DNA from: Parcubacteria group bacterium
GTDB lineage: Bacteria; Patescibacteriota; Patescibacteriia; UBA2169
Assembly: GCA_016181765.1 (NCBI GenBank)
Contig: JACOYR010000002.1
Location: 1 to 63,828, forward strand
Direction of reading: 5' to 3'
Length of the DNA: 63,828 bases
This document shows positions 1,553 through 29,500 of the stretch, piece after piece. Position numbers and translations under genes: made by a program. Numbering within the stretch: the first letter of the stretch is position 1; each line of letters opens with the position of its first letter. The notes beneath the pieces are model-generated. The model worked only from the letters and a program-made list of their open reading frames with translations. It was not told the origin of the DNA and ran no database searches.

Positions 1553-2506
1553 CTACTCCGCGGATTCATCCCCCATCAATTTCGCGACCAGGCCGGGGAG
1601 CTCCTTGGGATCGTAGAACTCAATGGCAATGACCCCCGTGTTTTTCCCTTTTCTGCCGATGGAAACGCGCGTGCCCAAAAGCTCGGTGAGCGCGCGCTCA
1701 TAGGCCTCTATGTTCGGGTCCTTGGACACGGTGCGCGTGTGCCGGTTCACCTCAACCTTGCGCGCCTCCTGGGTGGCGTCTATGATGGAGAGCCGTTCCG
1801 CGAGAATCTTTCTGAAGAGCGCCATGCGCTTTGCATCGTCATGCACCTCCAAAATGGCGCGGCCGTGCCCCGCGTTGATTTTGCGCTCGGAAAGCGCGAG
1901 CTGGATTTCCGAGGGCAGGCCCAGAAGCCGGAGGGCGTTGGAAATGAGCGGCCGGGTCTTGCCCATGCGGTCCGCAATCTGCTGGTGCGTTAACCCGAAC
2001 TCGTCGTTGAGCTTCTGGTAAGATTCCGCCTCCTCAATGGGGTTTAGGTCCGAGCGCTGGATATTCTCAATAAGCGCAATCTCCAAGCGCTCAAGCTCGC
2101 CTGACTTGCGGATGATGGCGGGCACGGTTTTCAAGCCCCCAAGCTTTGAGGCGCGCAAGCGCCGTTCCCCGGCAATCAGCTCATACTGGCCGCTCGCATC
2201 CCGCACCACAACGAGCGGCTGGATGATGCCGTGCTCACGAATGGACTGGGCCAGGCGTTCCAATTCTTCCTGGTTAAAATGCTTGCGCGGCTGGTGCCGG
2301 TTGGAAACGATTGCTCCAACCGGAATTTCAACAACAGCTGATTGCGCGGCTCCCGCTTCAACTGAAGCGTCGCCGACGACGTGCTGGTTCGCAAGCGTCT
2401 GGAGAGCAGCCTTTGATTTGCTCGGAATGAGCGAGCCCAAGCCCCGCCCGAGCCCGTGGTTTTGTTTTTTCATAGATGATAGGGAGGGGCCATATGACCC
2501 CGACAC
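1553..2506 (-). CDS. parB: Chromosome partitioning protein ParB
   Basis: GLGRGLGSL N-terminus, the IAGERRLRA ParB box, and an HTH region. A GTG start abuts the parA stop. An alternative ATG at 2473 gives MKKQNHGLGRGL. Confidence 0.9.
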   Translation of the reverse strand: MSGSYGPSLSSMKKQNHGLGRGLGSLIPSKSKAALQTLANQHVVGDASVEAGAAQSAVVEIPVGAIVSNRHQPRKHFNQEELERLAQSIREHGIIQPLVVVRDASGQYELIAGERRLRASKLGGLKTVPAIIRKSGELERLEIALIENIQRSDLNPIEEAESYQKLNDEFGLTHQQIADRMGKTRPLISNALRLLGLPSEIQLALSERKINAGHGRAILEVHDDAKRMALFRKILAERLSIIDATQEARKVEVNRHTRTVSKDPNIEAYERALTELLGTRVSIGRKGKNTGVIAIEFYDPKELPGLVAKLMGDESAE

Positions 2507-3277
2507 TTAAAAGTGCGCATGCAGTTCCAGAATCTCCCGGGCCAGGCGCTCGTACGCCTTAGCGCCCTTTGAGCCGGGGTCATAGTGCAGAATTGATTTG
2601 CCGAATGAGGGCGCTTCCGTGAGCCGCACGTTGCGCGGAATCACGCTGCGGAAAATCTTGTCCGGAAAGTACTGGTACAACTCATGCATCACCTGCTCCG
2701 AGAGCTTCTGGCGCGAGTCGTACATGGTGAGCACCGCTCCCAGCACTTTGACTTCGGGCTTGATGTTCTCCTGGATCAGGCTGATGGTGTTCATGAGCTG
2801 CCCCAGGCCCTCCAAGGCAAAGTACTCTGCCTGCACGGGTATGAGAATTTCGTCTGCCGCAACCAGGCCGTTGATGGTGAGAAGCCCCAGGCTGGGCGGA
2901 GAATCAATGATGATGTAGTCAAACTCGTGGCGCACCTGGTCTATCACGTCCAATAATCTGAATTCCCTGCGGTCCACGTTCACGAGTTCAACCGAGGCTC
3001 CGGCGAGCGCGTTCGTGGCCGGGGCCACCTTGAGGCCGTCCAGATCATGGGCCTGGATGATGGAGCGCAGATCCGTTTCCCCGCTCAACACCTCGTACAA
3101 TCCCCGTTCCAGCTCTTTGTGCTCAATGCCAATGCCGCTCGTGGCGTTTGCCTGGGGATCAAGGTCAACAAGCAGCACGTATTTCCCTAAAGCCGCAAGG
3201 TACACCGCCAAGTTAATGGACGTGGTTGTCTTGCCGACCCCGCCTTTCTGGTTAATGACCGAAATGACACGTGCCAT
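2507..3277 (-). CDS. parA: ParA/Soj partitioning ATPase
   Basis: Deviant Walker A NQKGGVGKTT directly after MARVISV. The ORF-track start at 3313 adds 12 unlikely residues. Confidence 0.9.
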   Translation of the reverse strand: MARVISVINQKGGVGKTTTSINLAVYLAALGKYVLLVDLDPQANATSGIGIEHKELERGLYEVLSGETDLRSIIQAHDLDGLKVAPATNALAGASVELVNVDRREFRLLDVIDQVRHEFDYIIIDSPPSLGLLTINGLVAADEILIPVQAEYFALEGLGQLMNTISLIQENIKPEVKVLGAVLTMYDSRQKLSEQVMHELYQYFPDKIFRSVIPRNVRLTEAPSFGKSILHYDPGSKGAKAYERLAREILELHAHF

Positions 3278-3306
3278 ATCGGATATTATACAATGAACGA
3301 GATGCT

Positions 3307-3335
3307 TTGACAATGCGGGGTGATTGGTTTAAAAT
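3307..3335 (+). promoter_or_regulatory. Sigma70-like promoter for tRNA-Leu and the CYTH gene
   Basis: TTGACA (3307-3312), 17-nt spacer, TAAAAT (3330-3335). Confidence 0.5.
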
Positions 3336-3353
3336 CTAAACGTCCCCTGTATT

Positions 3354-3392
3354 CCCCCTCCTCGTATTGAGGAGGGGGCAAGGGGGTGGTTA
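3354..3392. repeat. G-rich hairpin repeat, copy 1 (CCCCCTCCTC-gtatt-GAGGAGGGGG then cAAGGGGGTGGTTa)
   Basis: A perfect 10-bp stem followed by an AAGGGGTGGTT tail. The same architecture occurs at 7293-7330, 36397-36435 and 61801-61860. Confidence 0.8.
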
Positions 3393-3398
3393 AAACAA

Positions 3399-3485
3399 GC
3401 CGGAGTGATGTAACTGGTAAACATGCACGACTCAAAATCGTGTGACCGCAAGGTCGTGAGGGTTCGACTCCCTCCTCCGGCACCA
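3399..3485 (+). tRNA. tRNA-Leu (anticodon CAA), class II, CCA encoded
   Basis: Hand-folded, 87 nt. Acceptor GCCGGAG/CTCCGGC, anticodon loop CTCAAAA, 15-nt variable arm (GACC-GCAA-GGTC), T arm GAGGG-TTCGACT-CCCTC. Confidence 0.9.
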
Positions 3486-3500
3486 TATTTGACGGTACCC

Positions 3501-4079
3501 ATGAAAAACGAAGTTGAGGCAACGTTTCTCTCGGTCAATAGAGATGCGGTGCGGAATAAACTTAAGGCAGCCGGGTTTGAGTTAAAAACTCCGGAGTATG
3601 TGATGCGCAGAAAAACCTTTGATTTTTCCCGCGTTGCGCCGGGAAAGAACAAGTGGGGGCGCGTCCGCCAGGAATCCGACAAAGTTACCGTGACGATTAA
3701 AGAAATCCGCGGCTCGGGCATCAACGATGTGTATGAAGTTGAGCTTGTGGTCAATGACTTTGATACTGCGGTATCCTTTTTTGAAGCATGTGGCGTTCCT
3801 GTAAAATCATTCCAGGAAAATATGCGCGAAGTGTGGAAGCGCAATGGGGTGGAGGTCATGATTGACACGTGGCCCGGGCTGAATCCATTTGTGGAAATTG
3901 AAGGGGCAGATGAAACAGTCGTGCGAGAAACATCCAAGGAACTAGGATTTGATTTTGAGCAAGGGGTTTTTGGCAGTGTTGATCTGATATACGAAAAAGA
4001 GCTTGGCATACCGACCAAGGCCATTGACCGCATGCCGGAAATCACCTTTGCGCATCCGCCAAAAAAAAACGCCGCATGA
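3501..4079 (+). CDS. CYTH-domain protein (CyaB-like class IV adenylyl cyclase / triphosphatase family)
   Basis: The N-terminal EVEATF matches the ExExK-type CYTH start, and the size and strand pattern (..VTIKE.., YEVELVV, FVEIEG) fit. The ATG at 3501 lies after the tRNA; the longer ORF overlaps the tRNA. Confidence 0.65.
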   Translation: MKNEVEATFLSVNRDAVRNKLKAAGFELKTPEYVMRRKTFDFSRVAPGKNKWGRVRQESDKVTVTIKEIRGSGINDVYEVELVVNDFDTAVSFFEACGVPVKSFQENMREVWKRNGVEVMIDTWPGLNPFVEIEGADETVVRETSKELGFDFEQGVFGSVDLIYEKELGIPTKAIDRMPEITFAHPPKKNAA

Positions 4080-12514: not shown

Positions 12515-12613
12515 GACATTTCTATTTCCCGTTGACACGCATAACGCCCGCTCATGACGCGATGCGCGGGGTGTGCTATACTGACAATCATTAAAAATAA
12601 CGCGCACGAACCT

Positions 12614-13066
12614 ATGCCCCACAACCCACCCCTCATCCTGTATGTGGAAGACGATGGCATGCTCCTTACCATGTACCAAGAATTCTTTACCATCTACGGC
12701 TTCGCCTTTGAGGGAGCCGCGGACTTCAAGACCGGCAGAAAGCTCATTCCGGAAAAGATGCCGGACCTGGTGCTCCTTGACCTGCTCCTGCCGGACATGT
12801 GGAGCGCAATCCCCCACCACGTAAACCACGAGCTCGGCTTGGAGATCTTGGAAGGAATCAAAGCAGACCCGAAAACGCGCGGCATTCCGGTCATCATCCT
12901 CTCCAATATTGACGAAGCCGGCGTGGTTGCGAAAGCCAAGGCGCTCGGGGCCGAGGACTTCCTGGTCAAGGCGCACGTCGTGCCCAGGGAGGTGCTCGCG
13001 GCCATCAAGAAAATTTTTGACGCGCGCGGCATTCCCCTGCCCGAGAAGCGGGTGCCGAAAACATAG
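12614..13066 (+). CDS. Stand-alone response-regulator receiver domain
   Basis: LILYVEDD, DLVLLDLLLPD, PVIILSN, and K at ..FLVKA. No output domain. Confidence 0.8.
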   Translation: MPHNPPLILYVEDDGMLLTMYQEFFTIYGFAFEGAADFKTGRKLIPEKMPDLVLLDLLLPDMWSAIPHHVNHELGLEILEGIKADPKTRGIPVIILSNIDEAGVVAKAKALGAEDFLVKAHVVPREVLAAIKKIFDARGIPLPEKRVPKT

Positions 13067-13974: not shown

Positions 13975-14003
13975 ATGGGAATGCACACGATGCGGCCATC
14001 CAG
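13975..14003. repeat. 29-nt direct repeat R1 (atgggaatgcacacgatgcggccatccag)
   Basis: Matches 14936-14964 with 2 transitions. Confidence 0.8.
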
Positions 14004-14004
14004 T

Positions 14005-14508
14005 CTACTCGCCTGCCGCTTCAAGAATCTCCCGGCGCACCGATTCGCCGATCCAGACGTTTTCCGCGCGAAGCCTGGCAAGCATGCTGGCTACCTCGGG
14101 AATGTGGCCGGCCGTCTTGGCGTACACCAAAAAACCACCGAGGCCCAGCAGGCGGGTTTTGGTGAGTACGGCGCGTGCCGCTTCCCTTTCAAGCTTCTCG
14201 TCCAGCAACAAAAAATCAGCCTTTTTCCGCTCGGCGAGGATAATTGATTCGGCGTCAGCCCTGCTGATGCCGAATGTTGCAAGTTCCGGTATCGCGGCAC
14301 TGTCTGGAATGCTCTCAACCACCAGCCATCCTGTTTTATGCGCGTGCGCGATTTCCGTTGCGCCGGTTTTGCCTTTTCCCCGCACCACAAGTTCGTTGAA
14401 AACACCACCTGAAACGGTTATGTGTGTAAAGACGTCTTGCAAGAGCGAAAGCTGATTGATCCGGGCCAACGAAATAATCGGACCGCTGTCCGCGACAACA
14501 ACAACCAT
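14005..14508 (-). CDS. DUF3368-type PIN-like toxin
   Basis: VVVADSGPIISLARINQLSLLQDVF...GGVFNEL, with the partner UPF0175 gene 3 nt upstream. Confidence 0.7.
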   Translation of the reverse strand: MVVVVADSGPIISLARINQLSLLQDVFTHITVSGGVFNELVVRGKGKTGATEIAHAHKTGWLVVESIPDSAAIPELATFGISRADAESIILAERKKADFLLLDEKLEREAARAVLTKTRLLGLGGFLVYAKTAGHIPEVASMLARLRAENVWIGESVRREILEAAGE

Positions 14509-14511
14509 ACG

Positions 14512-14790
14512 CTACCGCCCGATCGCTCCGGCAAGCAAAGCTGACTCGGCGCGCACGTCACCTGGCGCATAATCAAGATAGGGAACCTGGTGCGAACCCA
14601 TCAAATCCAAAACGTCATGTATCGGAACGTTGAGCAGCTCAGCGGCCCGGGATGAGGTTATCCGCTTTTCCCGGAGCAATTCCAAAACCGAAAGCTCGGT
14701 CAGCTTCCTGCTCACTTCGTCTTCGGGCTTCCAGTAATCAAACAGCGCTTCGGGCACGCATACTGTTTTTGTCGCTTGTTGCGTAGGCAT
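14512..14790 (-). CDS. UPF0175-family antitoxin
   Basis: ..ELSVLELLREKRITSSRAAELLNVPIHDVLDLMGSHQVPYLDY. The start at MPTQQ lies 6 nt after a -10 box. Confidence 0.7.
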   Translation of the reverse strand: MPTQQATKTVCVPEALFDYWKPEDEVSRKLTELSVLELLREKRITSSRAAELLNVPIHDVLDLMGSHQVPYLDYAPGDVRAESALLAGAIGR

Positions 14791-14796
14791 GCGGAT

Positions 14797-14825
14797 AGCA
14801 TACCAAATAATGCGGGACGATGCAA
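14797..14825 (-). promoter_or_regulatory. Promoter of the UPF0175/PIN operon (leaderless-type)
   Basis: On the minus strand: TTGCAT, 17 nt, TATGCT, 6 nt, ATG. Confidence 0.45.
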
Positions 14826-14868
14826 GGCGCCGCAACGAAAAATGGGGACATGACCCATTTTTTTTATC
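14824..14868. repeat. Direct repeat DR1 with hairpin (gcgccgcaacg...AAAAATGGGgacatgaCCCATTTTT)
   Basis: Shares gcgccgcaacg and aaaaatggggacatgNcccattttt with 17168-17229. A/T runs flank the hairpin on both sides, so it resembles a bidirectional terminator. Confidence 0.75.
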
Positions 14869-14935
14869 GCCGGACCGAAGCCGCATCAGGTTTCACGAGC
14901 CACTCCACCTACAGCCGAAAACCGAGCGCATGGAG

Positions 14936-14964
14936 ATGGGAATGCACACGATGTGGTCATCCAG
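14936..14964. repeat. 29-nt direct repeat R2
   Basis: Copy of 13975-14003. Confidence 0.8.
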
Positions 14965-14973
14965 CACACTCAA

Positions 14974-15002
14974 TTGACAAAACCGACCGAAACCACTAAA
15001 CT
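14974..15002 (+). promoter_or_regulatory. Strong sigma70-like promoter of the micro-ORF / radical SAM cassette
   Basis: TTGACA (14974-14979), 17 nt, TAAACT (14997-15002). Confidence 0.55.
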
Positions 15003-15084
15003 AGTGTTAGGTTTGCATACTGCCCAGAGTCAGTATGGCGAGAACCAAAAAAATCGCACCCTAACAAGAAAGGAGGGACAAGGC

Positions 15085-15147
15085 GTGAAGACGCGCATCA
15101 GGGTCAGAATCCTGAAGTGCCGTTGCTTTACCTGCGACAGCAACTAG
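15085..15147 (+). CDS. Candidate 20-aa Cys-rich peptide MKTRIRVRILKCRCFTCDSN (GTG start)
   Basis: AAAGGAGGG lies 7 nt upstream of the GTG. Three Cys fall in the last 9 residues. It sits immediately upstream of the rSAM/SPASM gene. It is the in-frame tail of track ORF 14953-15147. Confidence 0.35.
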   Translation: MKTRIRVRILKCRCFTCDSN

Positions 15148-15164
15148 CGGCGGCACAGGCCCGT

Positions 15165-15198
15165 TACGGCCGAGGGACATGTTTGTCTTTCGGCCGTA
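15165..15198 (+). other. Hairpin between the micro-ORF and the rSAM gene
   Basis: TACGGCCGA / TCGGCCGTA 9-bp stem with a 16-nt loop and no U-tract. Confidence 0.5.
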
Positions 15199-15239
15199 CT
15201 CTTACCTCAACATACTCGCAACCTCCAAAGGAGGTCGTC

Positions 15240-16289
15240 GTGTTTGAGATTGAAACGCAAGACGCGATTTACGAAGTTGAGTTTCTCCATGCCCAAATCA
15301 ACATCACCTCTCGCTGTAATATGAGATGTGAGCACTGTCGGGGGTCTTACGGCGGCACTGTTGATTTGTCGGCGGCTGATTTTGAAACACTGTTGCTCTT
15401 CAGCCACCAGCACCTCGGCGAAGGAGGCGGTTACTTGATCTCGGGGGGAGAGCCCTTGCTCCATCCGCATCTCAAAGAGCTTCTTCTTCTGTTGAAGCAT
15501 CACTTCCGCAAAAACGGGTTTGTATCCGTCACGACCAACGGCACATTCCTCACCTCTGGTTGGCTGGATTTTCTGCAGTCACTGGCCTTTCCCGATCTCC
15601 GCATTGCCATCAGTTTGGACAGCGTTGATCCGGAAAGAAACAACGCGTTCCGTCATTCTCGCCAGGCTTTCCAAAACTCCGTCAAGGCTATTAAGCTGGT
15701 GGCGGAACGGCCGGATATCCAGTGCATTGTCCGGGCCACGATTCAAAAGGGCCAATTGCCGGAAGTGGAGCCCATGTTGGAGCTCGTTGATTCATTAGGG
15801 GGAAACGTTCTGTCTGTTTCCAGCGTCATTCCTGTGGGTCGGGCTCTGGGTAAGTCAGCATTGCACTTTGGCAAGGAAGCGAAGCAACAATTGGTCGAAC
15901 TGGCCGTGGCTCTCAATCAGCACGGTCGAAAAACCAAGGTTGATGTAAATGACCCTTTGGCTTACATCATTGATGGTGACCAGGAGGAATGTGGCATGTT
16001 CGGCGGTTGTATTGCCGGCATTGGCACTTTCAGTGTTGAGCCGGACGGCACGATGTTTCCCTGCCCGGTTCTACCCAATCAGGTGATTATGAACATCGGC
16101 GGAAAGACTCCGGAGCAAATACTGGAGGCTTACGCTCAAAGCCCTATCGTTCATTCTCTGTTGGAGAGGAGGCTTACGGGCAAGTGCGGCGGGTGTAAAC
16201 TGCGCTTTACCTGCGGCGGCTGCCGCGCCCGGGCAGAAGGCGTCATGGGCCATTACTTGGCCGAAGACCCGGACTGTTGGCTGCAGTGA
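15240..16289 (+). CDS. Radical SAM enzyme with C-terminal SPASM/twitch auxiliary-cluster domain
   Basis: CNMRCEHC (CxxxCxxC), SGGEPLL, and C-terminal CIAGIGTFSVEPDGTMFPC ... CGGCKLRFTCGGC ... C. AAAGGAGG lies 6 nt before the in-frame GTG at 15240. The track ORF begins at 15117. Confidence 0.85.
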   Translation: MFEIETQDAIYEVEFLHAQINITSRCNMRCEHCRGSYGGTVDLSAADFETLLLFSHQHLGEGGGYLISGGEPLLHPHLKELLLLLKHHFRKNGFVSVTTNGTFLTSGWLDFLQSLAFPDLRIAISLDSVDPERNNAFRHSRQAFQNSVKAIKLVAERPDIQCIVRATIQKGQLPEVEPMLELVDSLGGNVLSVSSVIPVGRALGKSALHFGKEAKQQLVELAVALNQHGRKTKVDVNDPLAYIIDGDQEECGMFGGCIAGIGTFSVEPDGTMFPCPVLPNQVIMNIGGKTPEQILEAYAQSPIVHSLLERRLTGKCGGCKLRFTCGGCRARAEGVMGHYLAEDPDCWLQ

Positions 16290-16368
16290 TGAAGTGTCCG
16301 TATTCACGCAAGATACGGGCAAGCCGCGAAAGCTTGTCCGTATTCATTTTTGCTGTTACAGTGTACGT

Positions 16369-17127
16369 ATGTTCAAACCCATACTAGACGAGTTTATCGG
16401 GCAATTCAAACGCAAGCACCCCAAAGACAACATCCGGGTTCTTGCGATGTTGGGTTTTGGCTCAAGTTTCAGCAACAAAAAAATACGGGCCAATTCGGAT
16501 TTGGATTTGTATATCGTCATTAAAGACATTGGCAAGCGATTTCGCGGAGTGATGCGCATCAACGGCATTGCGGTGGATTACTTTGCCTATCCGCTGAAAC
16601 AACTGAAAGCCGATTGGAAAAAGGTTAAAAACAGAACCGCCCCGCGGCTGACCATCGCATACATGCTGCGGGATGGCCATATTATATTAGATCAGAATCA
16701 CGCCTTGCGGAAGTTGCGCATTGAAGCCAAGAAATTTTTGCAACATGAATTAAAGAACAGTGCGATTCCGCCCAATCTGCTGGTCATCAATAAATACTTC
16801 GTTAATGATTATCTCAAAGACATAGAAGACAGCCTGCGGGACGGAGATGCGTTTGCCTGGCAATATAATGTCAATCTATTGTTTAAAGATTTGATTGATA
16901 TTTTTTGCCAATTCCATAAGATTCCCCTGGTAAAGCCGAAATACCAGAAGATGGAAATCGCCAAACGGGATAAAAAATTTGTAAGGTTGTACGAATCGGT
17001 TGCCGGTGCGCCTTCTCCAAAAGAAAAAACAAAGCGGATTAACGCATTGGCGCGGTACTGCCTGAAAACCATGGGCGGCCCGCTGCCGCGGGAGTGGGAA
17101 CTGGCGCGGCCGGTCAGGGACGTTTAA
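16369..17127 (+). CDS. Pol-beta-superfamily nucleotidyltransferase (KNTase / antibiotic-NTase-like) with helical C-terminal domain
   Basis: LGFGSSFSNKKIRANSDLDLYIV (GS...DxD). About 253 aa from the ATG at 16369. Visibly more AT-rich than its neighbours. Confidence 0.7.
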   Translation: MFKPILDEFIGQFKRKHPKDNIRVLAMLGFGSSFSNKKIRANSDLDLYIVIKDIGKRFRGVMRINGIAVDYFAYPLKQLKADWKKVKNRTAPRLTIAYMLRDGHIILDQNHALRKLRIEAKKFLQHELKNSAIPPNLLVINKYFVNDYLKDIEDSLRDGDAFAWQYNVNLLFKDLIDIFCQFHKIPLVKPKYQKMEIAKRDKKFVRLYESVAGAPSPKEKTKRINALARYCLKTMGGPLPREWELARPVRDV

Positions 17128-17167
17128 AGAGGAGGGGAAGTTGATTTACCAGTACATCGGGATGACA

Positions 17168-17229
17168 AAAGCGCCGCAACGGTTTTAACCACCCGTAAAA
17201 ATGGGGACATGGCCCATTTTTACGGGTGG
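17168..17229. repeat. Direct repeat DR2 with extended hairpin (CCACCCGTAAAAATGGGgacatggCCCATTTTTACGGGTGG)
   Basis: Shares the gcgccgcaacg and hairpin core with DR1. Likely the terminator of the cassette. Confidence 0.75.
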
Positions 17230-17276
17230 AACTGTCGTGAAGCGGGCGCCGAAAACCTAGGTGTGGATATGCCGCA

Positions 17277-17305
17277 TTGACAAAGCGCTCCCTCGCATCT
17301 ACACT
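17277..17305 (+). promoter_or_regulatory. Sigma70-like promoter
   Basis: TTGACA (17277-17282), 17 nt, TACACT (17300-17305). Confidence 0.55.
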
Positions 17306-17354
17306 GATACTTGAAAACCAAACGTGAACCTTTCAACATCAAGGAGACGGCGCA

Positions 17355-17696
17355 ATGGCGCATCCAACATACCCTGCCGTCATCTTTGATGAGGCTACTG
17401 GCAGGTATAAGTGCGAAATGCGCGACAAAAAACTCGCCAGAGTCTGGGGAGTGGGATATGGAAACACCAGAGGTGAGGCTATCGCTAACGCCCGCCGCGG
17501 TCAACCGCCTGATGGGAAAATCAAGCGTGTGATTGGGTGGGTTCAACGCCATCCGTTTCTCGTCGGCGCCGCGGTCGGCGCATATTTAGCCGCACGAAAC
17601 GGCGCTCGGACATTTAGCGAATATGCAGCCGCCTCTGTTATTGGCGGATTCGTGGGCTGGGCTGCAAGTAAAGCAGTCCGGTTCTTCACCAGATGA
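17355..17696 (+). CDS. Hypothetical protein: HicB/UPF0150-like N-terminal fold fused to two TM helices
   Basis: AAGGAG lies 8 nt upstream. AVIFDEATGRYKCEM..GVGYGNTRGEAIANAR resembles HicB-fold antitoxins. The C-terminus has PFLVGAAVGAYLAA and VIGGFVGWAAS helices. Confidence 0.55.
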   Translation: MAHPTYPAVIFDEATGRYKCEMRDKKLARVWGVGYGNTRGEAIANARRGQPPDGKIKRVIGWVQRHPFLVGAAVGAYLAARNGARTFSEYAAASVIGGFVGWAASKAVRFFTR

Positions 17697-19276: not shown

Positions 19277-19337
19277 ATACGCCGGCAAAGCAAACGATTG
19301 GAGGATGATGCAAGGCGCCACAGCGGGAGAATATTGA

Positions 19338-22557: not shown

Positions 22558-24099
22558 TCAGACGCATGGTGACGTGAGACTTCCCGAAAGACTGGAGCCG
22601 TAAAACGCTTCCAAAGCTCCGGTAATATACGCCCGTACTTCTCCGCTTGGTATTTCCGCTATCCGCAGATCGTCCGGTAGCCAAACATGGTTTTCCGCGC
22701 TTTCCCGTGCACGGCCGGCCAAATCGGTATATGTCCGCTTCAGATAGGAAAGTTGTGGTACCAAGTCTGGTCGCTCAGCCACAAGCAAGCCAAACTCTTC
22801 GGTCCCTGGGTAGGGCTTGAACTGGAAAATACCGGCCTCGGTCATGCCTATGGTTTTCAGGTCTGCGATAAACCGAACGGTATCCTCAATCTGTGACCGG
22901 GTCTCGCCTGGAAAACCAAGCACAAAGAAGCCTTTCGGCTGGATGCCAAACCGAACCAACTTTTGAACGGCTTGTACCACTTGATGAGTCGCGACCTTCT
23001 TCTTGATGCGCTTTAAGACAACATCGTTGCCGCTCTCAACACCCAGCGCTATCTTCCAAGCGCCAGATGCTTGCATCATGCCCATGACCTCGTCGTTGAA
23101 GTCCCGCCGCAAAATCACCGGCGCGCGCGTCAAACCGCGCCACATAAACTTGCCCAAGAGATCACGACTCTCCAGACCGAGATAGAAATCACGGATGTTT
23201 TCGCCGGAAATGAAAGCCATGTCATCTAGAAAGTGCACTGCGTCGGCTCCCAAACCGCTTACCACATACTCGACTTCGTCAAGTATTCGCGACACCTCAG
23301 GTCGGGCATAGGGCACGTCGTTGCCGCGATTCACCATTATCGGCGAAGCGCAGAATGTACACTCAAACGGACAACCATACGTCACGAACAGCGTGGCCTC
23401 GCTGACCTCTTTGAACGCACCGGCATGATGGATTGTATGCCGGTAAAGCGGCTCCTCTATGTACACATCCTGCCTGATCATCGGGATGTCGTCCGGCGCC
23501 AGCTTGGGCGCATATTCAGTAACAGGCAACAGACTCTGCCCTTTGTACCAAATCCCGGACAGGCGCTTTTCAACGCCGCGAAAAGCGACAGAAAGAATTT
23601 CTCCTATCGCAACCTCGCCGTTGCCGCGAACAATCGCGAAAGCATTAGGAAAATCCTGAACCGCATTACACAAGTCAAGCGTGGCATGAATACCGCCCAG
23701 AATATAGGGCACGCCAATCCGGTCGCAAACCCGGGCAATGGCAATGGCTTCGGGAACATTCACAGATGTGGGATTTAGTCCCACCAACTTGGCTCCCGAT
23801 GCCTTGATTTGCGCTCCAATCTGTTCGGGTTGCAGCCGCAAACGGTGCGCGTCCAGAAGGCCTGCCTTGAAACCGAACTTCTCACGAGCCGTTGCGACGA
23901 CTCTCAAAAATCCCCACGGCGGCTCCTCGCCATCAGGAATCAATCCCTGTTGGTACGTCGAGGGCACATTGATGCCCAGAAAATCAAAACCATACTCTTC
24001 TGCGGGCATGGCCCAGTGTGTTCGGCCTTCTGTATGTAACTCGCTGATACGATGGCTCTGGTTGAAGATGGTTAAGCCAAACTGACCATTCTTTGACAC
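22558..24099 (-). CDS. B12-binding-domain radical SAM enzyme (class B)
   Basis: N-terminal Rossmann-like cobalamin-binding region (KLVGLNPTS...ILGGIH) and the rSAM cluster YGCPFECTFCAS. Confidence 0.85.
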   Translation of the reverse strand: MSKNGQFGLTIFNQSHRISELHTEGRTHWAMPAEEYGFDFLGINVPSTYQQGLIPDGEEPPWGFLRVVATAREKFGFKAGLLDAHRLRLQPEQIGAQIKASGAKLVGLNPTSVNVPEAIAIARVCDRIGVPYILGGIHATLDLCNAVQDFPNAFAIVRGNGEVAIGEILSVAFRGVEKRLSGIWYKGQSLLPVTEYAPKLAPDDIPMIRQDVYIEEPLYRHTIHHAGAFKEVSEATLFVTYGCPFECTFCASPIMVNRGNDVPYARPEVSRILDEVEYVVSGLGADAVHFLDDMAFISGENIRDFYLGLESRDLLGKFMWRGLTRAPVILRRDFNDEVMGMMQASGAWKIALGVESGNDVVLKRIKKKVATHQVVQAVQKLVRFGIQPKGFFVLGFPGETRSQIEDTVRFIADLKTIGMTEAGIFQFKPYPGTEEFGLLVAERPDLVPQLSYLKRTYTDLAGRARESAENHVWLPDDLRIAEIPSGEVRAYITGALEAFYGSSLSGSLTSPCV

Positions 24100-26515: not shown

Positions 26516-29500
26516 CTACTGATACGTAAAAGAGACAGGCGAAGAATAATTTCCGCACACCAGATTGTTGCAGCCGCGAACTCGCGCCTGCACGCTGGCC
26601 AAACCCTCGGGTTCATAAGGTATTGCGTAAAATATATCAGCCGCGTCAATGGTAACCGGCGCGCCGTTGTCTTTGGTGATTTCAACTTCGTAAAAATCAG
26701 CCAAAGACACAGGAGGACCCCAATTCACCGTTACTTCATCGCCGAAAGCCGGTATTCCCGGCGCAAAACTGGAGATAACCGCCTGCATAGGCTTAAACGC
26801 AACAAACTGCGTTGCAGGCGGCCCGCACCCATCATCCGTGCAGGTGCGCGCCTGGAACAAGAGCGACTTCAAATTTTGATCCCCTATTATGATTAATGAG
26901 CGTTCATCCTCCCCCTGATGGGCTCCGCTGGGTTCAACCACTGTTGAACCATTGCTGAAATCTTTTTTTACCCTTACCTTATACCCCGTAATCCCGGTCT
27001 GGCTTGCGGGCGCATCCCATGCAAAGGTTACGCCCGCGCCTTGGCTGATATCGCCTGCCGGATCCGTGATGCGCAGATTTTCCGGCGGCATAATGCTCAA
27101 ATCCAAATACTCAATCTGCAGAACCGGGGTATTGGGGTTATAGCTTGACCATGAATAGACACCCCAGTTGTCCTCCACGCGCACCTTGGGCGAAACAGGA
27201 CCCGCTTTTTGGTACACGTGCGTAAACACGAACGGTTTATTATTGCACGCGGCCGGTTTCCTACCCCACTCTGGCAGTCCCTCGCCGCAGTCCCAGCGGT
27301 GGTTCTTGAAGTTGCCGGATATGGTTGTAATATCCTCGGGCGCAGCATTGGTGTTTCCGTCGCCGTCCGTATCCCCCACCCAGTCAATGGTGATCTTGCG
27401 CAAGGGAAGCTGTTCCCCGTTGAAGTTATATCCATAAAACTCAAGTCGCACTTCTTCGCCCACATACGCCTCAATGGAATTATTCGGCTCTCCGGATGCC
27501 TTGCCCGCGCCTGAATGGGCAATAGGCGTTCCATTGATGGAATACCGGCCGTAATTATTACTGATGCCGCAGTTGCTATTTATTGGCACATTCTTTTCAT
27601 TGTCTTCTGGCTCATATCCGCGCTCACTCCGTCTTGCGGCCTGAATCACCGGGCACTGGCCAAATGTTGGATTAATTATTGCCGCATCGCCGACAACAGT
27701 ACTGAATACCGGATTTAATGGATCACCATCTGGATATTCTGTATTCACATTTGTGGCGCTGCTGACGTATCTCGCCAACCCAGTGCTCCATTGCCACCAC
27801 CTATATACCTTGGCAAAAATTTGCTTGAGGTACGTCATAGCGGTCCTGTTTGATATAGCATCAGTATCAACGCCCCCGATCCAAGTCGTCTCAATTGCGG
27901 GACTGTCGCTTGACGGCGGAACAATGCAACCCCCGGGACCTTTACAGCTGTACGGACTGCCGGCGCGCACCTGTCCTATGGAATCCTCCACATAGAGCGG
28001 CTGTACGCCCGGCTCCAGCGCCTTGGTTTCCCCGGTAAACTCATCTTTCTCTTCATCAAGCCGCGCATCCCATTTTGTTGGGTCGTAGATGGTCTCCGCG
28101 GGAGGCGTAATCGCGCCAAACGGCTTTGCGTCCTGAACAAACATAAAATCAGTCGTATATAATTCCTGGAACAATCCGCCATTATCCAACAAGTATTTAG
28201 TTGCCGCAATAAACCAATCCTTGCCGTTGCCCTGAATCCTGCCGGTCCATGCCTTGTTCTCTCCTTCTTCACCGGTCACAGCCACCACGTCTGTGCACCA
28301 TTCGCGAAGCTGGAACTTAATCTGGAAGTCAACCCAGCCAGTATCATTGGTATTATCGCAGAATCCGCCTTCAAACCCAAGGAACTGGTACGGATTTATC
28401 GGACTTGCGTCGCCGCGTATACTGCCGGGAGGGAATGAAGGCGGTCCGTTGCCGCCAACATTGGTACCATTGACGTTAAACCCATCAACGCTGCCATCTG
28501 GCCCCGCAAACCGCGCGCGCAGGGCAAAAATGTTAGTATTATTACCGGAGCTGATAGGATCAGCCCCGCCCTCGCCGCAGTTGTCTGAATTCATGATTGG
28601 CAGCATAAACTTGTCCCACGAATACTCTCCGCCAAAATCGCAGTTTGCGTTCCGGGAGCCGCCGCACCACAAAGTGGTCCATCGGTTATCCCGAGTTTCG
28701 GGAAGCACGCCAAGACTGCTTCTGGCAGAGCCATCGCGGTTGATGATGAACTCTTCATTAGCCGTCGGCCAACCCGAATCTTGCTGTCTTTTAACCACTA
28801 GCTTGATTGCTTCAATATCATACTCGTAAAGCTTGCCGAGCGGGGATTGAGGCTTTACGGGAAACTGCAAGAGTCCGGTAGCAGATTGTTGACCTGCACC
28901 CGTCGCAGTATTTCCTTGCACCAACGGCCTGACAGGATGGTCTATACCTCCTCCTGACCCGCGCGTTCCATCCACTTTGCAAAAGTCGTTAGTTGCGCTG
29001 CACTCATAAAAATTAGCATCATACGCAACACGCCGGGCTTCTGGGTCCCCTCCTTCAGCAAGCGCCAGCACATACGTATTATCCCGCTCTTCCCCTGGTG
29101 TAATAAAGAACGTTGAGTTATCAATCCTATTCCCTTTCCCGGCTGCGCAGTAATACAGCGGCTGGCTCGCAACAAATCCGGCTTCCGGATGGTTCTCAAA
29201 CACATTGGGCTTGCCCTGGACCACATCAACCGGCCACCAGGCAAGGCACGCAGAATTGCCGGATGGGTCAAGAACCGGAGAGCGCTCCAGGCAATAGCCG
29301 TACCAGCCCTGGTGCGAGGAAATCTGGCGCGTGTCAGCCGGGAGCGCGCGCTGGGACGCCTTGGGCAGATACACGGTCTGGTCCAGGGCATCCACTTTCT
29401 TGTAGGAGCACTGGCAGTTCTCCCCGCTCTCCTCGCACAAATTCAAATTCCTCAAGCGGGAGCTCTGGCCGAAATTTACGGGCTGTGAGTAGTTGGAACG

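What the first reader, a model, noticed from the sequence alone, without database searches (positions are those of the whole stretch)
14974..17127. Promoter, 20-codon Cys-rich micro-ORF, hairpin, radical SAM/SPASM enzyme and nucleotidyltransferase: a minimal RiPP-like (or defence-like) cassette
Seen in the sequence:
- A near-consensus promoter: TTGACA, 17 nt, TAAACT.
- AAAGGAGGG 7 nt before a GTG at 15085 that opens MKTRIRVRILKCRCFTCDSN. The N-terminal half is basic. The last 9 residues hold three Cys interleaved with Thr/Asp/Asn.
- A 9-bp hairpin at 15165-15198 with no U-tract.
- A second strong SD (AAAGGAGG) before the GTG at 15240 of an rSAM enzyme. It carries CNMRCEHC and a C-terminal multi-Cys SPASM-type region.
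- An AT-rich pol-beta NTase gene follows.

Established knowledge: SPASM-domain rSAM enzymes frequently crosslink short ribosomal peptides (sactipeptides, ranthipeptides, PqqE acting on the ~23-aa PqqA). A precursor-maturase hairpin is a common stoichiometry device.

Inference: the micro-ORF is the substrate.

Two things are unusual. The leader is extremely short, and there is no visible RRE/PqqD, protease or exporter. The cassette also sits in a toxin-antitoxin island next to an NTase, so a defence role is an alternative.
Basis: partly seen in the sequence, partly recalled or inferred. Interest (0 to 1): 0.72.

Follow-up and report, generated by a model that had tools for sequence, protein, structure and literature searches.

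The report
Unannotated radical-SAM-modified peptide cassette in CPR bacteria
A 20-codon gene for a basic, cysteine-containing peptide, the radical-SAM enzyme next to it and, often, a dedicated nucleotidyltransferase form a conserved cassette in ultra-small (Patescibacteria) bacteria, which looks like a previously undescribed family of enzyme-modified ribosomal peptides.

Summary

- **Conservation:** In 16 distinct homologous loci (rSAM identity 37-100%), an SD-led micro-ORF lies directly upstream of the enzyme. In only 1 of 30 loci of unrelated SPASM enzymes does any upstream ORF end in such a CxxC motif.
- **Peptide:** All 16 have a basic leader, in most an alternating one (KRIRVRV-like), and a C-terminal core. 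Group 1 ends RC[FN]TC[DS]xN*. Group 2 ends GKGSCxxC(G)D* or ENSCSICN*.
- **Selection:** Across the 11 RCFTCDxN loci, the seven conserved core codons vary only synonymously.
- **RNA elements:** A hairpin of unrelated sequence follows the ORF in 12 of 14 loci that have a gap of at least 60 nt.
- **Enzyme:** It has the CX3CX2C motif and 7 invariant SPASM cysteines. It has no RRE but carries a family-specific acidic N-terminal beta-hairpin. No NCBIfam model, including NirJ/AhbD, reaches its cutoff.
- **NTase:** The 252-aa downstream protein has a kanamycin-nucleotidyltransferase-like fold and an intact catalytic motif. Its close homologues appear to occur only beside such rSAM genes. A terminator precedes it and it has no SD.
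- **Annotation:** Peptide and enzyme are absent from NCBIfam, and the peptide is almost never annotated.

Best reading: a new RRE-less RiPP family, probably with a Cys-X3-Asp/Asn thioether, carrying an optional nucleotidylation or immunity enzyme. The chemistry is untested.

The parts
14974..15002 (+). Sigma-70-type promoter, TTGACA-17-TAAACT
   Evidence: A TTGACA-like -35 box with a 16-18 nt spacer and TAnnnT lies 73-144 nt upstream of the peptide start in 9 of 16 homologous loci (73-115 nt in eight of them).
15015..15037 (+). Stem-loop in the 5' UTR, GCATACTG...CAGTATG
   Evidence: RNAfold. A 5'-proximal hairpin of different sequence is predicted in most homologous 5' UTRs. No Rfam match. 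Its function is inferred to be mRNA stabilisation or regulation.
15069..15077 (+). Shine-Dalgarno AAAGGAGGG, 7 nt before the GTG start
   Evidence: A GGAGG- or GGGG-type SD precedes the peptide start in about 12 of 16 loci; the rest have a weaker AAGG/AGGA-type match or none.
15085..15147 (+). Precursor peptide gene, 20 aa: MKTRIRVRILKCRCFTCDSN. It has a basic beta-strand-like leader and the C-terminal core RCFTCDSN.
   Evidence: Conserved in 16 loci plus 2 further database peptides. R, C, T, C and N are invariant in the 12 aligned group-1 peptides. The conserved core codons differ only synonymously across the 11 RCFTCDxN loci.
15165..15198 (+). 15-bp RNA hairpin between the precursor and enzyme genes, with no U-tract
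   Evidence: A hairpin of unrelated sequence is present in 12 of 14 loci with a gap of at least 60 nt (z <= -2.2, mean z -3.3). Some carry T-runs (L186, L001, L168).
15221..15235 (+). Mini-hairpin ACCTCC-AAA-GGAGGT, which contains the SD of the rSAM gene (AAAGGAGG, 15227-15234)
   Evidence: Specific to the window. SD occlusion is inferred only.
15240..16289 (+). Radical SAM/SPASM peptide maturase, 349 aa. It has C26x3C30x2C33 and seven invariant SPASM cysteines (257, 275, 316, 319, 325, 328, 346). It has no RRE. Its N-terminal acidic beta-hairpin reads FEIETQDAIYEVEF.
   Evidence: AF2 model pLDDT 92. The Foldseek top hits are SkfB, SuiB, CteB, PqqE and anSME.
16312..16344 (+). Intrinsic-terminator-like hairpin (13 bp) followed by CATTTTTGCT, between the rSAM and NTase genes
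   Evidence: A stem plus T-run is found at this position in 7 of 7 loci that carry the NTase.
16369..17127 (+). Pol-beta-superfamily nucleotidyltransferase, 252 aa, with a kanamycin-NTase-like two-domain fold. Invariant G31 S32 ... D44xD46 ... D70. No SD. AT-rich.
   Evidence: The close family (16 non-self homologues) is apparently found only beside SPASM rSAM genes.
17189..17229 (+). 17-bp perfect hairpin downstream of the NTase gene, a likely transcript end. Its core AAAAATGGGGACATGGCCCATTTTT is repeated at 14838-14862.

Best explanation
The region is a self-contained biosynthetic cassette for a ribosomally synthesised, radical-SAM-modified peptide (RiPP). It belongs to a family that is essentially confined to Patescibacteria (CPR) and is unannotated.

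**Shown by sequence and comparison**
- A dedicated promoter drives a transcript with a strongly SD-led 20-codon precursor gene.
- A stable hairpin follows, then an SD-led rSAM/SPASM gene, then a terminator.
- Last comes an SD-less gene for a kanamycin-nucleotidyltransferase-like enzyme.

**Inferred mechanism**
1. The hairpin and terminator grade expression, so that precursor >> maturase >> NTase.
2. The alternating basic/hydrophobic leader (RIRVRI) docks as a beta-strand onto the enzyme's family-specific acidic N-terminal beta-hairpin (IETxxAIYE.EF). This would replace the missing RRE.
3. A core cysteine thiolate binds the auxiliary cluster I, which has only three invariant Cys ligands.
4. The 5'-deoxyadenosyl radical abstracts a hydrogen from an acceptor residue. 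A thioether ring then forms in the C-terminal core. The most likely link is Cys14 to Asp18 (a Cys-X3-Asp motif, as in PapB-type ranthipeptides). Thr16 and the terminal Asn20 are alternative acceptors.
5. The NTase either nucleotidylates a hydroxyl of the peptide as a tailoring step (Thr16 or Ser19), or inactivates the product as a self-immunity step.

The biological role of the small cationic cyclised peptide (antimicrobial, signal or intracellular) is unknown.
For: **The window is a Parcubacteria/Patescibacteria chromosome.** Its LeuRS is 85% identical to that of a groundwater Parcubacteria MAG.

**Conserved precursor**
- All 16 loci spanning 37-100% rSAM identity carry an upstream micro-ORF.
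- Two more such peptides are in the protein database.
- Group-1 peptides end RC[FN]TC[DS]xN* and group-2 peptides end GKGSCxxC(G)D* or ENSCSICN*. The peptide core therefore tracks the enzyme clade.
- Arg, Cys, Phe, Thr, Cys, Asp and Asn codons vary only synonymously among the 11 RCFTCDxN loci.
- Control: only 1 of 30 generic SPASM loci has any upstream ORF ending in CxxC-x0-3-stop.
- Reverse test: all 5 pattern hits in GTDB genomes that have a basic leader carry the rSAM directly downstream.

**Enzyme**
- It has the Radical_SAM domain, and 70 NCBIfam SPASM-type families match, all far below their cutoffs.
- It has 7 invariant SPASM cysteines. The 8th (C251) is present in only 21 of 38 sequences.
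- The best structural neighbours are the peptide maturases SkfB, SuiB, CteB, PqqE and anSME (TM 0.64-0.75).
- Residues 1-15 are conserved in both groups. They are not covered by tblastn matches to generic SPASM enzymes, which start at residues 5-22, mostly 16-21.

**RNA elements:**

**NTase**
- The catalytic motif is invariant.
- AF2 pLDDT is 83, and the Foldseek top hits are ANT(4') 1KNY (E 1e-7), LinB and ANT(6).
- It is present downstream in 7 of 12 group-1 loci inspected.
- 11 of 16 non-self homologues share their longest-contig length with an rSAM homologue.
- In GTDB genomes all 3 close copies lie next to a SPASM rSAM, including a divergent one.

**Other loci carry different candidate tailoring genes** in the NTase position: SAM methyltransferases in L081, L194 and L170, a P-loop protein in L169 and an NTP_transferase in L195. 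This is typical of RiPP clusters.

**PapB precedent:** PapB makes Cys-X3-Asp/Glu thioethers and tolerates n = 0-6 (PMC9413430).
Against: - There is no biochemical, transcript or proteomic evidence.
- No leader peptidase, exporter or RRE is present in any locus. The product may therefore not be a secreted natural product.
- The nearest NCBIfam models by score are the non-peptide enzymes NirJ2 and AhbD.
- The maturase scores only 65 bits against the PapB model, whose cutoff is 340. The thioether chemistry is thus an analogy, not a classification.
- Two peptides break the Cys-X3-Asp/Asn spacing: L169 (RCNTCSGN) and L197 (SCSSCGD).
- The NTase is missing from 5 of 12 group-1 loci and from all group-2 loci. 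It is separated from the rSAM gene by a terminator, so it may not act on the peptide.
- L196 (Faecalitalea, 34% identity) has no detectable precursor.
Confidence: 0.8

Rival explanations
1. The modified peptide is an intracellular toxin, or otherwise harmful, and the KNTase-like enzyme is its antidote. This would make the cassette a toxin-antidote or defence-type module, analogous to MNT/HepT type VII systems in which an NTase AMPylates the toxin, rather than a natural-product pathway.
For: - In the window the cassette lies inside a toxin-antitoxin island (AbiEi/AbiEii, MNT/HepT, DUF3368-family/UPF0175).
- TA genes are close by in L161, L167 and L170.
- The NTase is separately controlled, behind a terminator and without an SD, as expected for a constitutive antidote.
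- The structural relatives of the NTase are inactivating (resistance) enzymes.
- No exporter is present.
Against: - There is no specific PADLOC match. The only hit is generic rSAM similarity to pVip.
- 5 of 12 group-1 loci and all group-2 loci lack the NTase yet keep the peptide and rSAM.
- In L163, L165, L168 and L001 the neighbours are housekeeping genes.
- The C-terminal domain has no conserved HEPN Rx4-6H motif.
- The cassette is absent from viral, phage and plasmid collections.
Confidence: 0.1
2. The micro-ORF is a cis-regulatory leader or arrest peptide. Its translation, together with the downstream hairpin, attenuates transcription of the rSAM gene. On this view it is not the enzyme's substrate.
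For: - A short ORF followed by a stable hairpin, sometimes with a T-run, directly upstream of an enzyme gene is the classic attenuator layout.
- Arrest peptides such as TnaC and SecM are conserved at the amino-acid level (established knowledge).
Against: - The conserved part is a C-terminal 8-residue motif with several different invariant residue types (R, C, F, T, C, D, N). It is not a run of regulatory codons.
- The core changes together with the enzyme clade, group 1 versus group 2.
- L165 and L195 keep the peptide but have gaps of only 14 and 5 nt with no hairpin.
- The hairpin starts 18 nt after the stop codon.
- The enzyme's structural relatives are peptide maturases.
Confidence: 0.05
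3. The peptide is the precursor of a small redox or metal-binding cofactor, as PqqA is for PQQ and MftA for mycofactocin, or it is itself a CxxC metal-binding peptide matured by the rSAM.
For: - The C-terminal core is extremely conserved across 47-100% enzyme identity, as in PqqA and MftA.
- No protease or exporter is present.
- PqqE and the mycofactocin rSAM are among the SPASM matches.
Against: - None of the additional enzymes needed by known peptide-derived cofactor pathways is present in any locus.
- Scores to the PqqE and MftC models are far below cutoff: 60 against 381 and 63 against 265.
- The distribution is patchy, and the cassette sits in variable, accessory-like neighbourhoods.
Confidence: 0.04
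4. The rSAM is an AhbD/NirJ-like tetrapyrrole enzyme and the upstream ORF is a chance ORF.
For: The top NCBIfam hits are NirJ2 (128 bits) and AhbD (110 bits). JGI labels some homologues 'AdoMet-dependent heme synthase'.
Against: - The scores are about a quarter of the 500-bit cutoffs.
- No haem or sirohaem genes lie nearby.
- The ORF is conserved in 16 of 16 loci under purifying selection, whereas an upstream ORF ending in the CxxC motif occurs in only 1 of 30 control loci.
Confidence: 0.01

Closest known systems
Ranthipeptides made by PapB-type rSAM/SPASM maturases (freyrasin; also the NxxcB Asn-linked type)
   Same: - A short Cys-containing precursor is encoded directly upstream of a SPASM rSAM.
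- The core contains Cys-X3-Asp (RCFTCD, SCARCD) or Cys-X3-Asn (SCSICN). This is the spacing PapB crosslinks (PMC9413430).
- The auxiliary cluster I is probably open for a substrate thiolate.
   Different: - The maturase scores 65 bits against the 340-bit cutoff of the PapB model.
- The core holds a single motif at the extreme C terminus instead of six repeats.
- The leader is basic and only 12-36 residues long.
- There is no RRE, and the host lineage is CPR.
- A dedicated KNTase-like partner is present.
- The chemistry has not been demonstrated.
Sactipeptide/SCIFF maturases CteB, SkfB and AlbA, and the streptide maturase SuiB
   Same: These are the best structural matches to the AF2 model (SkfB, SuiB and CteB, TM 0.64-0.75). 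The model shows the SPASM/twitch architecture.
   Different: - Those enzymes are 380-450 aa and carry an N-terminal RRE-type peptide-binding domain.
- This enzyme is 349 aa. It starts 25 residues before the CX3CX2C motif and has only a 17-residue acidic beta-hairpin there.
Anaerobic sulfatase-maturating enzyme (anSME)
   Same: It is also an RRE-less SPASM enzyme of similar size that binds a peptide directly. It is the best PDB sequence hit (E 1e-17), with TM 0.72.
   Different: - The substrate motif (C/S)xPxR is absent from the peptide.
- anSME has fully Cys-ligated auxiliary clusters (own knowledge). Here the 8th Cys is not conserved.
- A dedicated small precursor gene is present here.
AhbD/NirJ haem and haem-d1 rSAM enzymes
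   Same: These give the highest-scoring NCBIfam models. They have a similar length and also lack an N-terminal domain.
   Different: The scores are about 25% of the cutoffs, and there is no tetrapyrrole gene context. A conserved precursor peptide is present.
Microcin C-type peptide-nucleotide antibiotics
   Same: The precursor is very short and has an obligatory C-terminal Asn: 12 of 12 aligned group-1 peptides and 2 further database peptides. An adjacent nucleotidyl-transferring enzyme is present.
   Different: - MccB is a ThiF/E1-like enzyme (own knowledge). Here the enzyme has a Pol-beta/KNTase fold.
- Group-2 peptides mostly end in Asp.
- An rSAM enzyme is the core partner.
- No transporter or immunity genes of the mcc type are present.
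Aminoglycoside/lincosamide O-nucleotidyltransferases ANT(4'), LinB and ANT(6)
   Same: The fold has the same two domains and the same size (252 against 253 aa). The GS...DxD...D catalytic residues are present.
   Different: - Sequence identity is 9-16%.
- Pfam Polbeta scores below its cutoff (18.2 against 26.9), and there is no PDB sequence hit.
- The genomic coupling is to an rSAM-peptide cassette rather than to resistance contexts.

Membership tests
rSAM/SPASM-dependent RiPP system (generic) | Radical SAM CX3CX2C cluster motif | tested here: met
   C26, C30 and C33 are invariant in 38 of 38 sequences. Pfam Radical_SAM E 1.5e-18.
rSAM/SPASM-dependent RiPP system (generic) | C-terminal SPASM 7-Cys motif (C-x9-15-G-x4-C ... 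CxxCx5Cx2-3C ... C) | tested here: met
   C257, G270-x4-C275, C316xxC319x5C325xxC328 and C346 are all invariant.
rSAM/SPASM-dependent RiPP system (generic) | Co-oriented precursor peptide gene conserved next to the maturase across orthologues | tested here: met
   16 of 16 family loci have it, whereas only 1 of 30 generic SPASM loci has an upstream ORF ending in the CxxC motif. The reverse pattern scan agrees.
rSAM/SPASM-dependent RiPP system (generic) | RRE (PqqD-like) leader-recognition domain, fused or encoded nearby. This is common but not universal. | tested here: not met
   Only 25 residues precede the first cluster Cys. No PqqD family appears among the neighbours of 14 loci.
rSAM/SPASM-dependent RiPP system (generic) | Enzyme-dependent covalent modification of the peptide | not testable with these tools
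   Needs co-expression and MS/MS.
Ranthipeptide (PapB family) | Maturase reaches the NF047865 PapB equivalog cutoff | tested here: not met
   65.4 bits against a cutoff of 340.
Ranthipeptide (PapB family) | Cys-Xn-Asp/Glu (or Asn) motif in the core peptide | tested here: met
   RCFTCD gives Cys-X3-Asp in 11 of 12 group-1 loci. SCARCD and SCRICD also give Cys-X3-Asp, and SCSICN gives Cys-X3-Asn. The exceptions are L169 and L197.
Ranthipeptide (PapB family) | Non-alpha-carbon thioether crosslink in the product | not testable with these tools
   Needs MS/MS or NMR.
AhbD/NirJ tetrapyrrole rSAM enzymes | Score at or above the NCBIfam equivalog cutoff | tested here: not met
   NirJ2 127.9 against 500, AhbD 109.9 against 500, NirJ 89.8 against 515. 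The same holds for group 2.
AhbD/NirJ tetrapyrrole rSAM enzymes | Sirohaem, haem or d1 biosynthesis gene neighbourhood | tested here: not met
   None in the window or in the homologous loci.
anSME | Substrate motif (C/S)-x-(P/A)-x-R | tested here: not met
   Absent from all 18 peptides.
Microcin C-like peptide-nucleotide | C-terminal Asn on the precursor | tested here: met
   All group-1 peptides end in Asn. Group 2 mostly ends in Asp.
Microcin C-like peptide-nucleotide | MccB-type ThiF/E1-like adenylyltransferase | tested here: not met
   The adjacent enzyme has a Pol-beta/KNTase fold. No ThiF family appears in any neighbourhood.
KNTase-like (ANT(4')/LinB) nucleotidyltransferases | Pol-beta catalytic signature hG[GS]...DxD plus a third acidic residue | tested here: met
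   G31, S32, D44, D46 and D70 are invariant in 17 sequences.
KNTase-like (ANT(4')/LinB) nucleotidyltransferases | Two-domain fold: N-terminal NTase plus C-terminal helical domain | tested here: met
   AF2 pLDDT 83. Foldseek 1KNY E 1.3e-7 with TM 0.54, followed by LinB and ANT(6).
KNTase-like (ANT(4')/LinB) nucleotidyltransferases | Sequence-level family membership (Pfam or NCBIfam cutoff) | tested here: not met
   Polbeta 18.2 against 26.9. No NCBIfam hit and no PDB sequence hit.
MNT/HEPN type VII toxin-antitoxin | HEPN partner or domain with the Rx4-6H motif | tested here: not met
   No conserved R-x4-6-H occurs in the C-terminal domain alignment. No HEPN gene lies within the cassette.
Known anti-phage defence systems (PADLOC) | Specific model match | tested here: not met
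   Only generic rSAM-core similarity to pVip (50 bits) and a 16-bit NTase hit.

The most novel reading that the evidence does not exclude
The family makes a peptide-nucleotide conjugate. In this reading a radical-SAM-cyclised, cationic mini-peptide with an obligatory C-terminal Asn is nucleotidylated by its own KNTase-fold enzyme. The nucleotidylation would be either the final maturation step or a reversible self-immunity or antidote switch. The cassette would then be a RiPP-based toxin/antidote module carried by genome-reduced, episymbiotic CPR bacteria. It would also be the first RiPP class whose leader is recognised by a short acidic beta-hairpin instead of an RRE.
Probability: 0.2. Interest if true: 0.85.

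Novelty: new variant of a known kind. Interest (0 to 1): 0.62.

Why it matters
- **A natural-product candidate in CPR bacteria.** CPR/Patescibacteria have tiny genomes and, to my knowledge, few recognised natural-product pathways. The full-text searches found no paper describing this system. A conserved, self-contained RiPP cassette there offers a testable molecule that could mediate their episymbiotic lifestyle or competition.
- **A compact system for enzymology.** The 20-aa substrate and 349-aa RRE-less maturase would be one of the most compact rSAM-RiPP systems. That makes it useful for studying leader recognition and for peptide-cyclisation biotechnology, in the same way PapB is used.
- **Possible new tailoring or immunity chemistry.** The apparently exclusive coupling of a kanamycin-NTase-like enzyme to rSAM-peptide cassettes hints at peptide nucleotidylation or a new immunity logic.
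- **A gap in annotation.** Only 5 members of the peptide family are called as genes among 5.8 billion protein clusters, so such precursors are largely invisible to current annotation.

Tried and rejected
- **Single-protein scan of GTDB genomes with the rSAM** found nothing. The alignment-based scan worked.
- **Most alignment-scan hits were generic.** Most hits from the genome and metagenome scans were SPASM enzymes at about 30% identity (Planctomycetota, Selenomonadaceae and others). They were used only as negative controls.
- **One locus returned no DNA** (P0041).
- **Integron-like reading of the flanking repeats was rejected.** No attC-like structure was seen. The repeats are short and confined to the TA island. 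By my own reading of the sequence, two of them overlap paralogous 5' regions or a gene's 3' end.
- **Rfam** found nothing in the 5' UTR, the micro-ORF or the hairpin region (14780-15300), at either gathering or E <= 1 thresholds.
- **PADLOC** gave only generic rSAM similarity.
- **Viral, phage and plasmid searches were negative**. The single viral pattern hit, L279, has no rSAM.
- **Scans for the wider NTase family failed.** Alignments A5 and A6 had no sufficiently conserved stretch.
- **The peptide profile search first failed** on parameter limits and then ran with a 44-aa first row.
- **L196 marks the edge of the family.** A precursor was sought upstream of the Faecalitalea homologue (34% identity) and none was found.
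- **Literature searches** for CPR, SPASM, RiPP and NTase combinations returned no description of this system.

Full report
**1. What is in the window**

Reading 14700-17400 and the consensus scan confirm each element of the finding.
- A TTGACA-17-TAAACT promoter lies at 14974-15002.
- AAAGGAGGG at 15069-15077 lies 7 nt before a GTG at 15085.
- That GTG opens a 20-codon ORF (15085-15147) encoding MKTRIRVRILKCRCFTCDSN.
- A hairpin lies at 15165-15198.
- A second SD (AAAGGAGG, 15227-15234) precedes the GTG at 15240 of a 349-aa protein. Coordinates were checked.

As RNA the hairpin is a 15-bp stem (dG -26 kcal/mol). The whole 92-nt gap folds with z = -4.9 against dinucleotide shuffles.

The 349-aa protein has a Pfam Radical_SAM domain (E 1.5e-18) and matches 70 NCBIfam SPASM-type families. 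All fall far below their curated cutoffs. The best are NirJ2 at 128 against 500, TIGR04053 at 117 against 395, and AhbD at 110 against 500. PapB scores 65 against 340.

The downstream 252-aa ORF (16369-17127) gives only a sub-threshold Polbeta hit. It is AT-rich: 42% GC against 52-58% in the adjacent 500-nt windows.

Upstream lie AbiEi/AbiEii, MNT/HepT and a DUF3368-family protein with UPF0175. The rest of the window carries RelA/SpoT, GMP synthase, LeuRS, PNPase and IF-2. The LeuRS is 85% identical to that of a groundwater Parcubacteria MAG. The window is therefore a Patescibacteria (CPR) chromosome.

**2. Is the micro-ORF real?**

The rSAM has 242 relatives at E <= 1e-10. They fall into two sets, named here by the sources mostly as Patescibacteria:
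- Group 1: about 46 clusters at 47-100% identity.
- Group 2: about 58 clusters at 31-41% identity.

I retrieved DNA for 16 distinct loci. In every one, a micro-ORF lies directly upstream of and co-oriented with the enzyme.

Group-1 peptides (20-44 aa) end in RC[FN]TC[DS]xN*. Examples:
- MQKRIRVRVLKCRCFTCDSN
- MNKKRIKVKVLKCRCFTCDTN
- MKTAKKIRRIRISKCRCFTCDSN
- ...KVIRVKVSKRRCFTCDSN
- ...KIIPVKILKARCFTCDTN
- ...VQKVRVSPNRCNTCSGN

Group-2 peptides end in GKGSCARCD*, GKGSCRICD*, GKGSCSSCGD* or ENSCSICN*. All carry a basic leader, and in most it has an alternating [KR]-[IV]-[KR]-V-[KR]-[IV] segment.

In the alignment of 12 group-1 peptides, R, C, T, C and the terminal N are invariant. At the DNA level, the seven conserved codons of the 11 RCFTCDxN loci differ only synonymously: CGT/CGC/AGA, TGC/TGT, TTT/TTC, ACC/ACT/ACG/ACA, GAC/GAT and AAC/AAT. 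This is the signature of selection on the peptide.

About 12 of the 16 starts have a GGAGG- or GGGG-type SD; the rest have a weaker match or none.

Two controls support specificity.
- Only 1 of 30 generic SPASM loci (about 30% identity) has any ORF ending in CxxC-x0-3-stop within 400 nt upstream.
- A degenerate DNA pattern for R-C-F-T-C-D-x-N-stop found 23 places in 185,579 genomes. The five with a basic leader, all CPR, have the rSAM immediately downstream. No rSAM homologue was detected in the other 18 loci, and I read those as chance matches from their lack of a basic leader.

The peptides are almost never annotated.
- Of 10 exact sequences, 3 are in the 15-billion-protein collection. The two that carry a name are called 'hypothetical protein'.
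- A profile search finds only 5 called members.
- No NCBIfam model matches them.

**3. The enzyme**

All 38 aligned orthologues keep C26x3C30x2C33 and seven SPASM cysteines (257, 275, 316, 319, 325, 328, 346). An eighth upstream Cys (251) is present in only 21 of 38.

By analogy with CteB-type thioether synthases (my own knowledge), three protein ligands on auxiliary cluster I would leave a site for a substrate thiolate.

The AF2 model is confident (pLDDT 92). Its best PDB neighbours are peptide-modifying SPASM/twitch enzymes: SkfB, SuiB, CteB, PqqE and anSME, with TM 0.64-0.75. The profile-to-PDB sequence search agrees.

There is no room for an RRE, because the cluster motif starts at residue 26. 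No PqqD-like gene occurs in any neighbourhood.

Instead, residues 1-15 form a family-specific acidic beta-hairpin.
- Its motif is F-E-I-E-T-x-x-A-I-Y-E-x-E-F.
- It is conserved in groups 1 and 2.
- It is not covered by the matches to generic SPASM enzymes, which start at residues 5-22, mostly 16-21.

The alternating acidic/hydrophobic pattern mirrors the alternating basic/hydrophobic leader. I infer, but have not shown, that the leader docks there by beta-strand pairing.

**4. RNA-level organisation**

- **Promoter.** A TTGACA-like box, a 16-18 nt spacer and TAnnnT lie 73-144 nt upstream of the peptide start in 9 of 16 loci, and 73-115 nt upstream in eight of them.
- **5' UTR.** It usually begins with a stem-loop. 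Rfam finds nothing there.
- **Peptide-to-rSAM gap.** It contains a strong hairpin of unrelated sequence in 12 of 14 loci with a gap of at least 60 nt (z <= -2.2, mean -3.3). Several have T-runs (L186, L001, L168). Two loci have gaps of 5 and 14 nt and no hairpin.
- **rSAM-to-NTase gap.** All 7 loci that carry the NTase have a stem followed by a T-run. In the window this is at 16312-16344. None of the NTase genes has an SD.

The inferred logic is graded expression, with precursor >> maturase >> NTase. The NTase may be transcribed from its own start close to the ATG.

**5. The nucleotidyltransferase**

- Sixteen non-self homologues at 54-69% identity were found. Eleven of them share their longest-contig length with an rSAM homologue.
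- I saw the gene directly downstream of the rSAM in 7 of 12 group-1 loci.
- G31, S32, D44, D46 and D70 are invariant.
- The AF2 model (pLDDT 83) is closest to kanamycin NTase ANT(4') (1KNY, E 1e-7), then LinB and ANT(6). These are all O-nucleotidyltransferases acting on small cationic antibiotics.
- An exhaustive profile search finds 345 representative clusters, but only 11 at E <= 1e-30.
- In GTDB genomes the three close copies all lie beside a SPASM rSAM. One, in Portnoybacteria (L282), lies beside a different rSAM pair at 30% identity. The 23%-identical Paenibacillus relatives have no detectable homologue of the window rSAM.

Loci without the NTase carry other candidate tailoring genes in that position:
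- SAM methyltransferases in L081, L194 and L170.
- A P-loop protein in L169.
- An NTP_transferase in L195.

This variability around a fixed peptide-rSAM core is typical of RiPP clusters. NTase-homologous tailoring enzymes have a precedent in the lasso peptide pseudomycoidin (PMC9266682).

**6. Mechanism proposed**

*Shown:* a conserved precursor/maturase pair under purifying selection, with dedicated expression signals.

*Inferred:*
1. The rSAM crosslinks the C-terminal core. The conserved feature common to both groups is a Cys followed three residues later by Asp or Asn (CFTCD, CARCD, CSICN).
2. PapB makes Cys-X3-Asp/Glu beta-thioethers and tolerates n = 0-6 (PMC9413430). An Asn-linked type (NxxcB) is also known (own knowledge; named in PMC11851443).
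3. I therefore favour a Cys14-Asp18 thioether, at about 45%. Thr16 and Asn20 are alternative acceptors.
4. The NTase then either nucleotidylates a hydroxyl (Thr16 is invariant in group 1) or serves as immunity.

**7. Rivals**

- **Attenuator or arrest peptide.** This is disfavoured for three reasons. The conserved residues are diverse and C-terminal. The core co-varies with the enzyme clade. Two loci lack the hairpin but keep the peptide.
- **Toxin-antidote or defence module.** The TA-island setting in the window and nearby TA genes in three other loci are compatible with it. Against it, there is no PADLOC match, the NTase is dispensable in many loci, other loci sit between housekeeping genes, and the cassette is absent from viral, phage and plasmid data.
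- **Cofactor precursor.** This is unlikely because no further pathway enzymes are present.
- **AhbD/NirJ assignment.** This is refuted by the scores and the genomic context.

**8. Novelty**

The kind of system, an rSAM/SPASM enzyme with a short Cys-containing precursor, is well known. The following are not described in NCBIfam release 20, in Pfam or in the searchable literature:
- this precursor family;
- the RRE-less enzyme with its acidic N-terminal hairpin;
- the near-restriction to CPR bacteria;
- the exclusive KNTase-like partner.

I rate it a new variant of a known kind, with interest 0.62. The main uncertainty is the complete absence of experimental evidence for translation, modification and function.

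Noticed in passing
window 14838-14862 and 17197-17221; 13045-13066 and 17239-17260; 13975-14010 and 14936-14971; 14819-14837 and 19307-19325: Short repeats occur only within the toxin-antitoxin island and bracket its cassettes.
- The palindrome AAAAATGGGGACATGRCCCATTTTT lies both upstream of the peptide promoter and downstream of the NTase.
- GAAGCGGGYGCCGAAAACMTAG forms the 3' end of the response-regulator-like gene 12554-13066 (by my reading, ...EKRVPKT*). It recurs as an orphan copy at 17239.

The repeats suggest cassette accretion or recombination. No attC-like structure was seen.
   Followed up: partly
window 16312-16371, and the rSAM-to-NTase gaps of L161, L163, L167, L168, L001 and L181: All seven NTase genes are preceded by a stem plus T-run terminator and have no Shine-Dalgarno sequence. 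In the window a TAnnnT hexamer (TACAGT) ends 6 nt before the ATG, and L001 (TATAAT, 7 nt) and L163 have -10-like hexamers 7-9 nt upstream. These genes may therefore be transcribed as leaderless mRNAs.
   Followed up: partly
window 15221-15235: The mini-hairpin ACCTCC-AAA-GGAGGT pairs the rSAM gene's SD with an upstream anti-SD. It is seen only in the window, not in the homologous loci. It may reduce translation of the maturase.
   Followed up: no
5' UTRs: window 15009-15084, L001 1835-1888, L167 1142-1200, L168 3738-3816, L181 (reverse strand), L002 3538-3598: The 5' UTRs share a 5' stem-loop. In several loci they also share a TCGTTCATTTYAAA-like stretch that can pair with the SD of the peptide gene. 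This is a possible translational control element with no Rfam counterpart.
   Followed up: partly
L282 (Candidatus Portnoybacteria, JAQUNU010000030.1) 14-2605: A 46%-identical copy of the NTase lies directly downstream of two tandem SPASM-type rSAM genes that are only about 30% identical to the window enzyme. The contig ends before any precursor could be seen. The NTase-rSAM coupling therefore extends beyond this peptide family.
   Followed up: partly
L165 2142-3860, and the P0041 locus (no DNA) 2103-3818: In two distinct loci, threonyl-tRNA synthetase is the gene immediately upstream of the peptide-rSAM pair. This may be coincidence or a preferred insertion site.
   Followed up: no
window 22558-24099 (- strand): A second, unrelated radical SAM protein lies 5 kb downstream of the cassette. 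It is 513 aa and has a B12-binding domain.
   Followed up: no
window 26516-34570 (- strand): A giant ORF of 2684 aa. It was not analysed.
   Followed up: no
L196 (Faecalitalea cylindroides homologue, 34% identity): This rSAM relative, from a cultured Firmicute according to its source name, has no detectable CxxC precursor upstream. It is preceded by two HTH regulators. It marks the outer limit of the peptide-linked family.
   Followed up: partly
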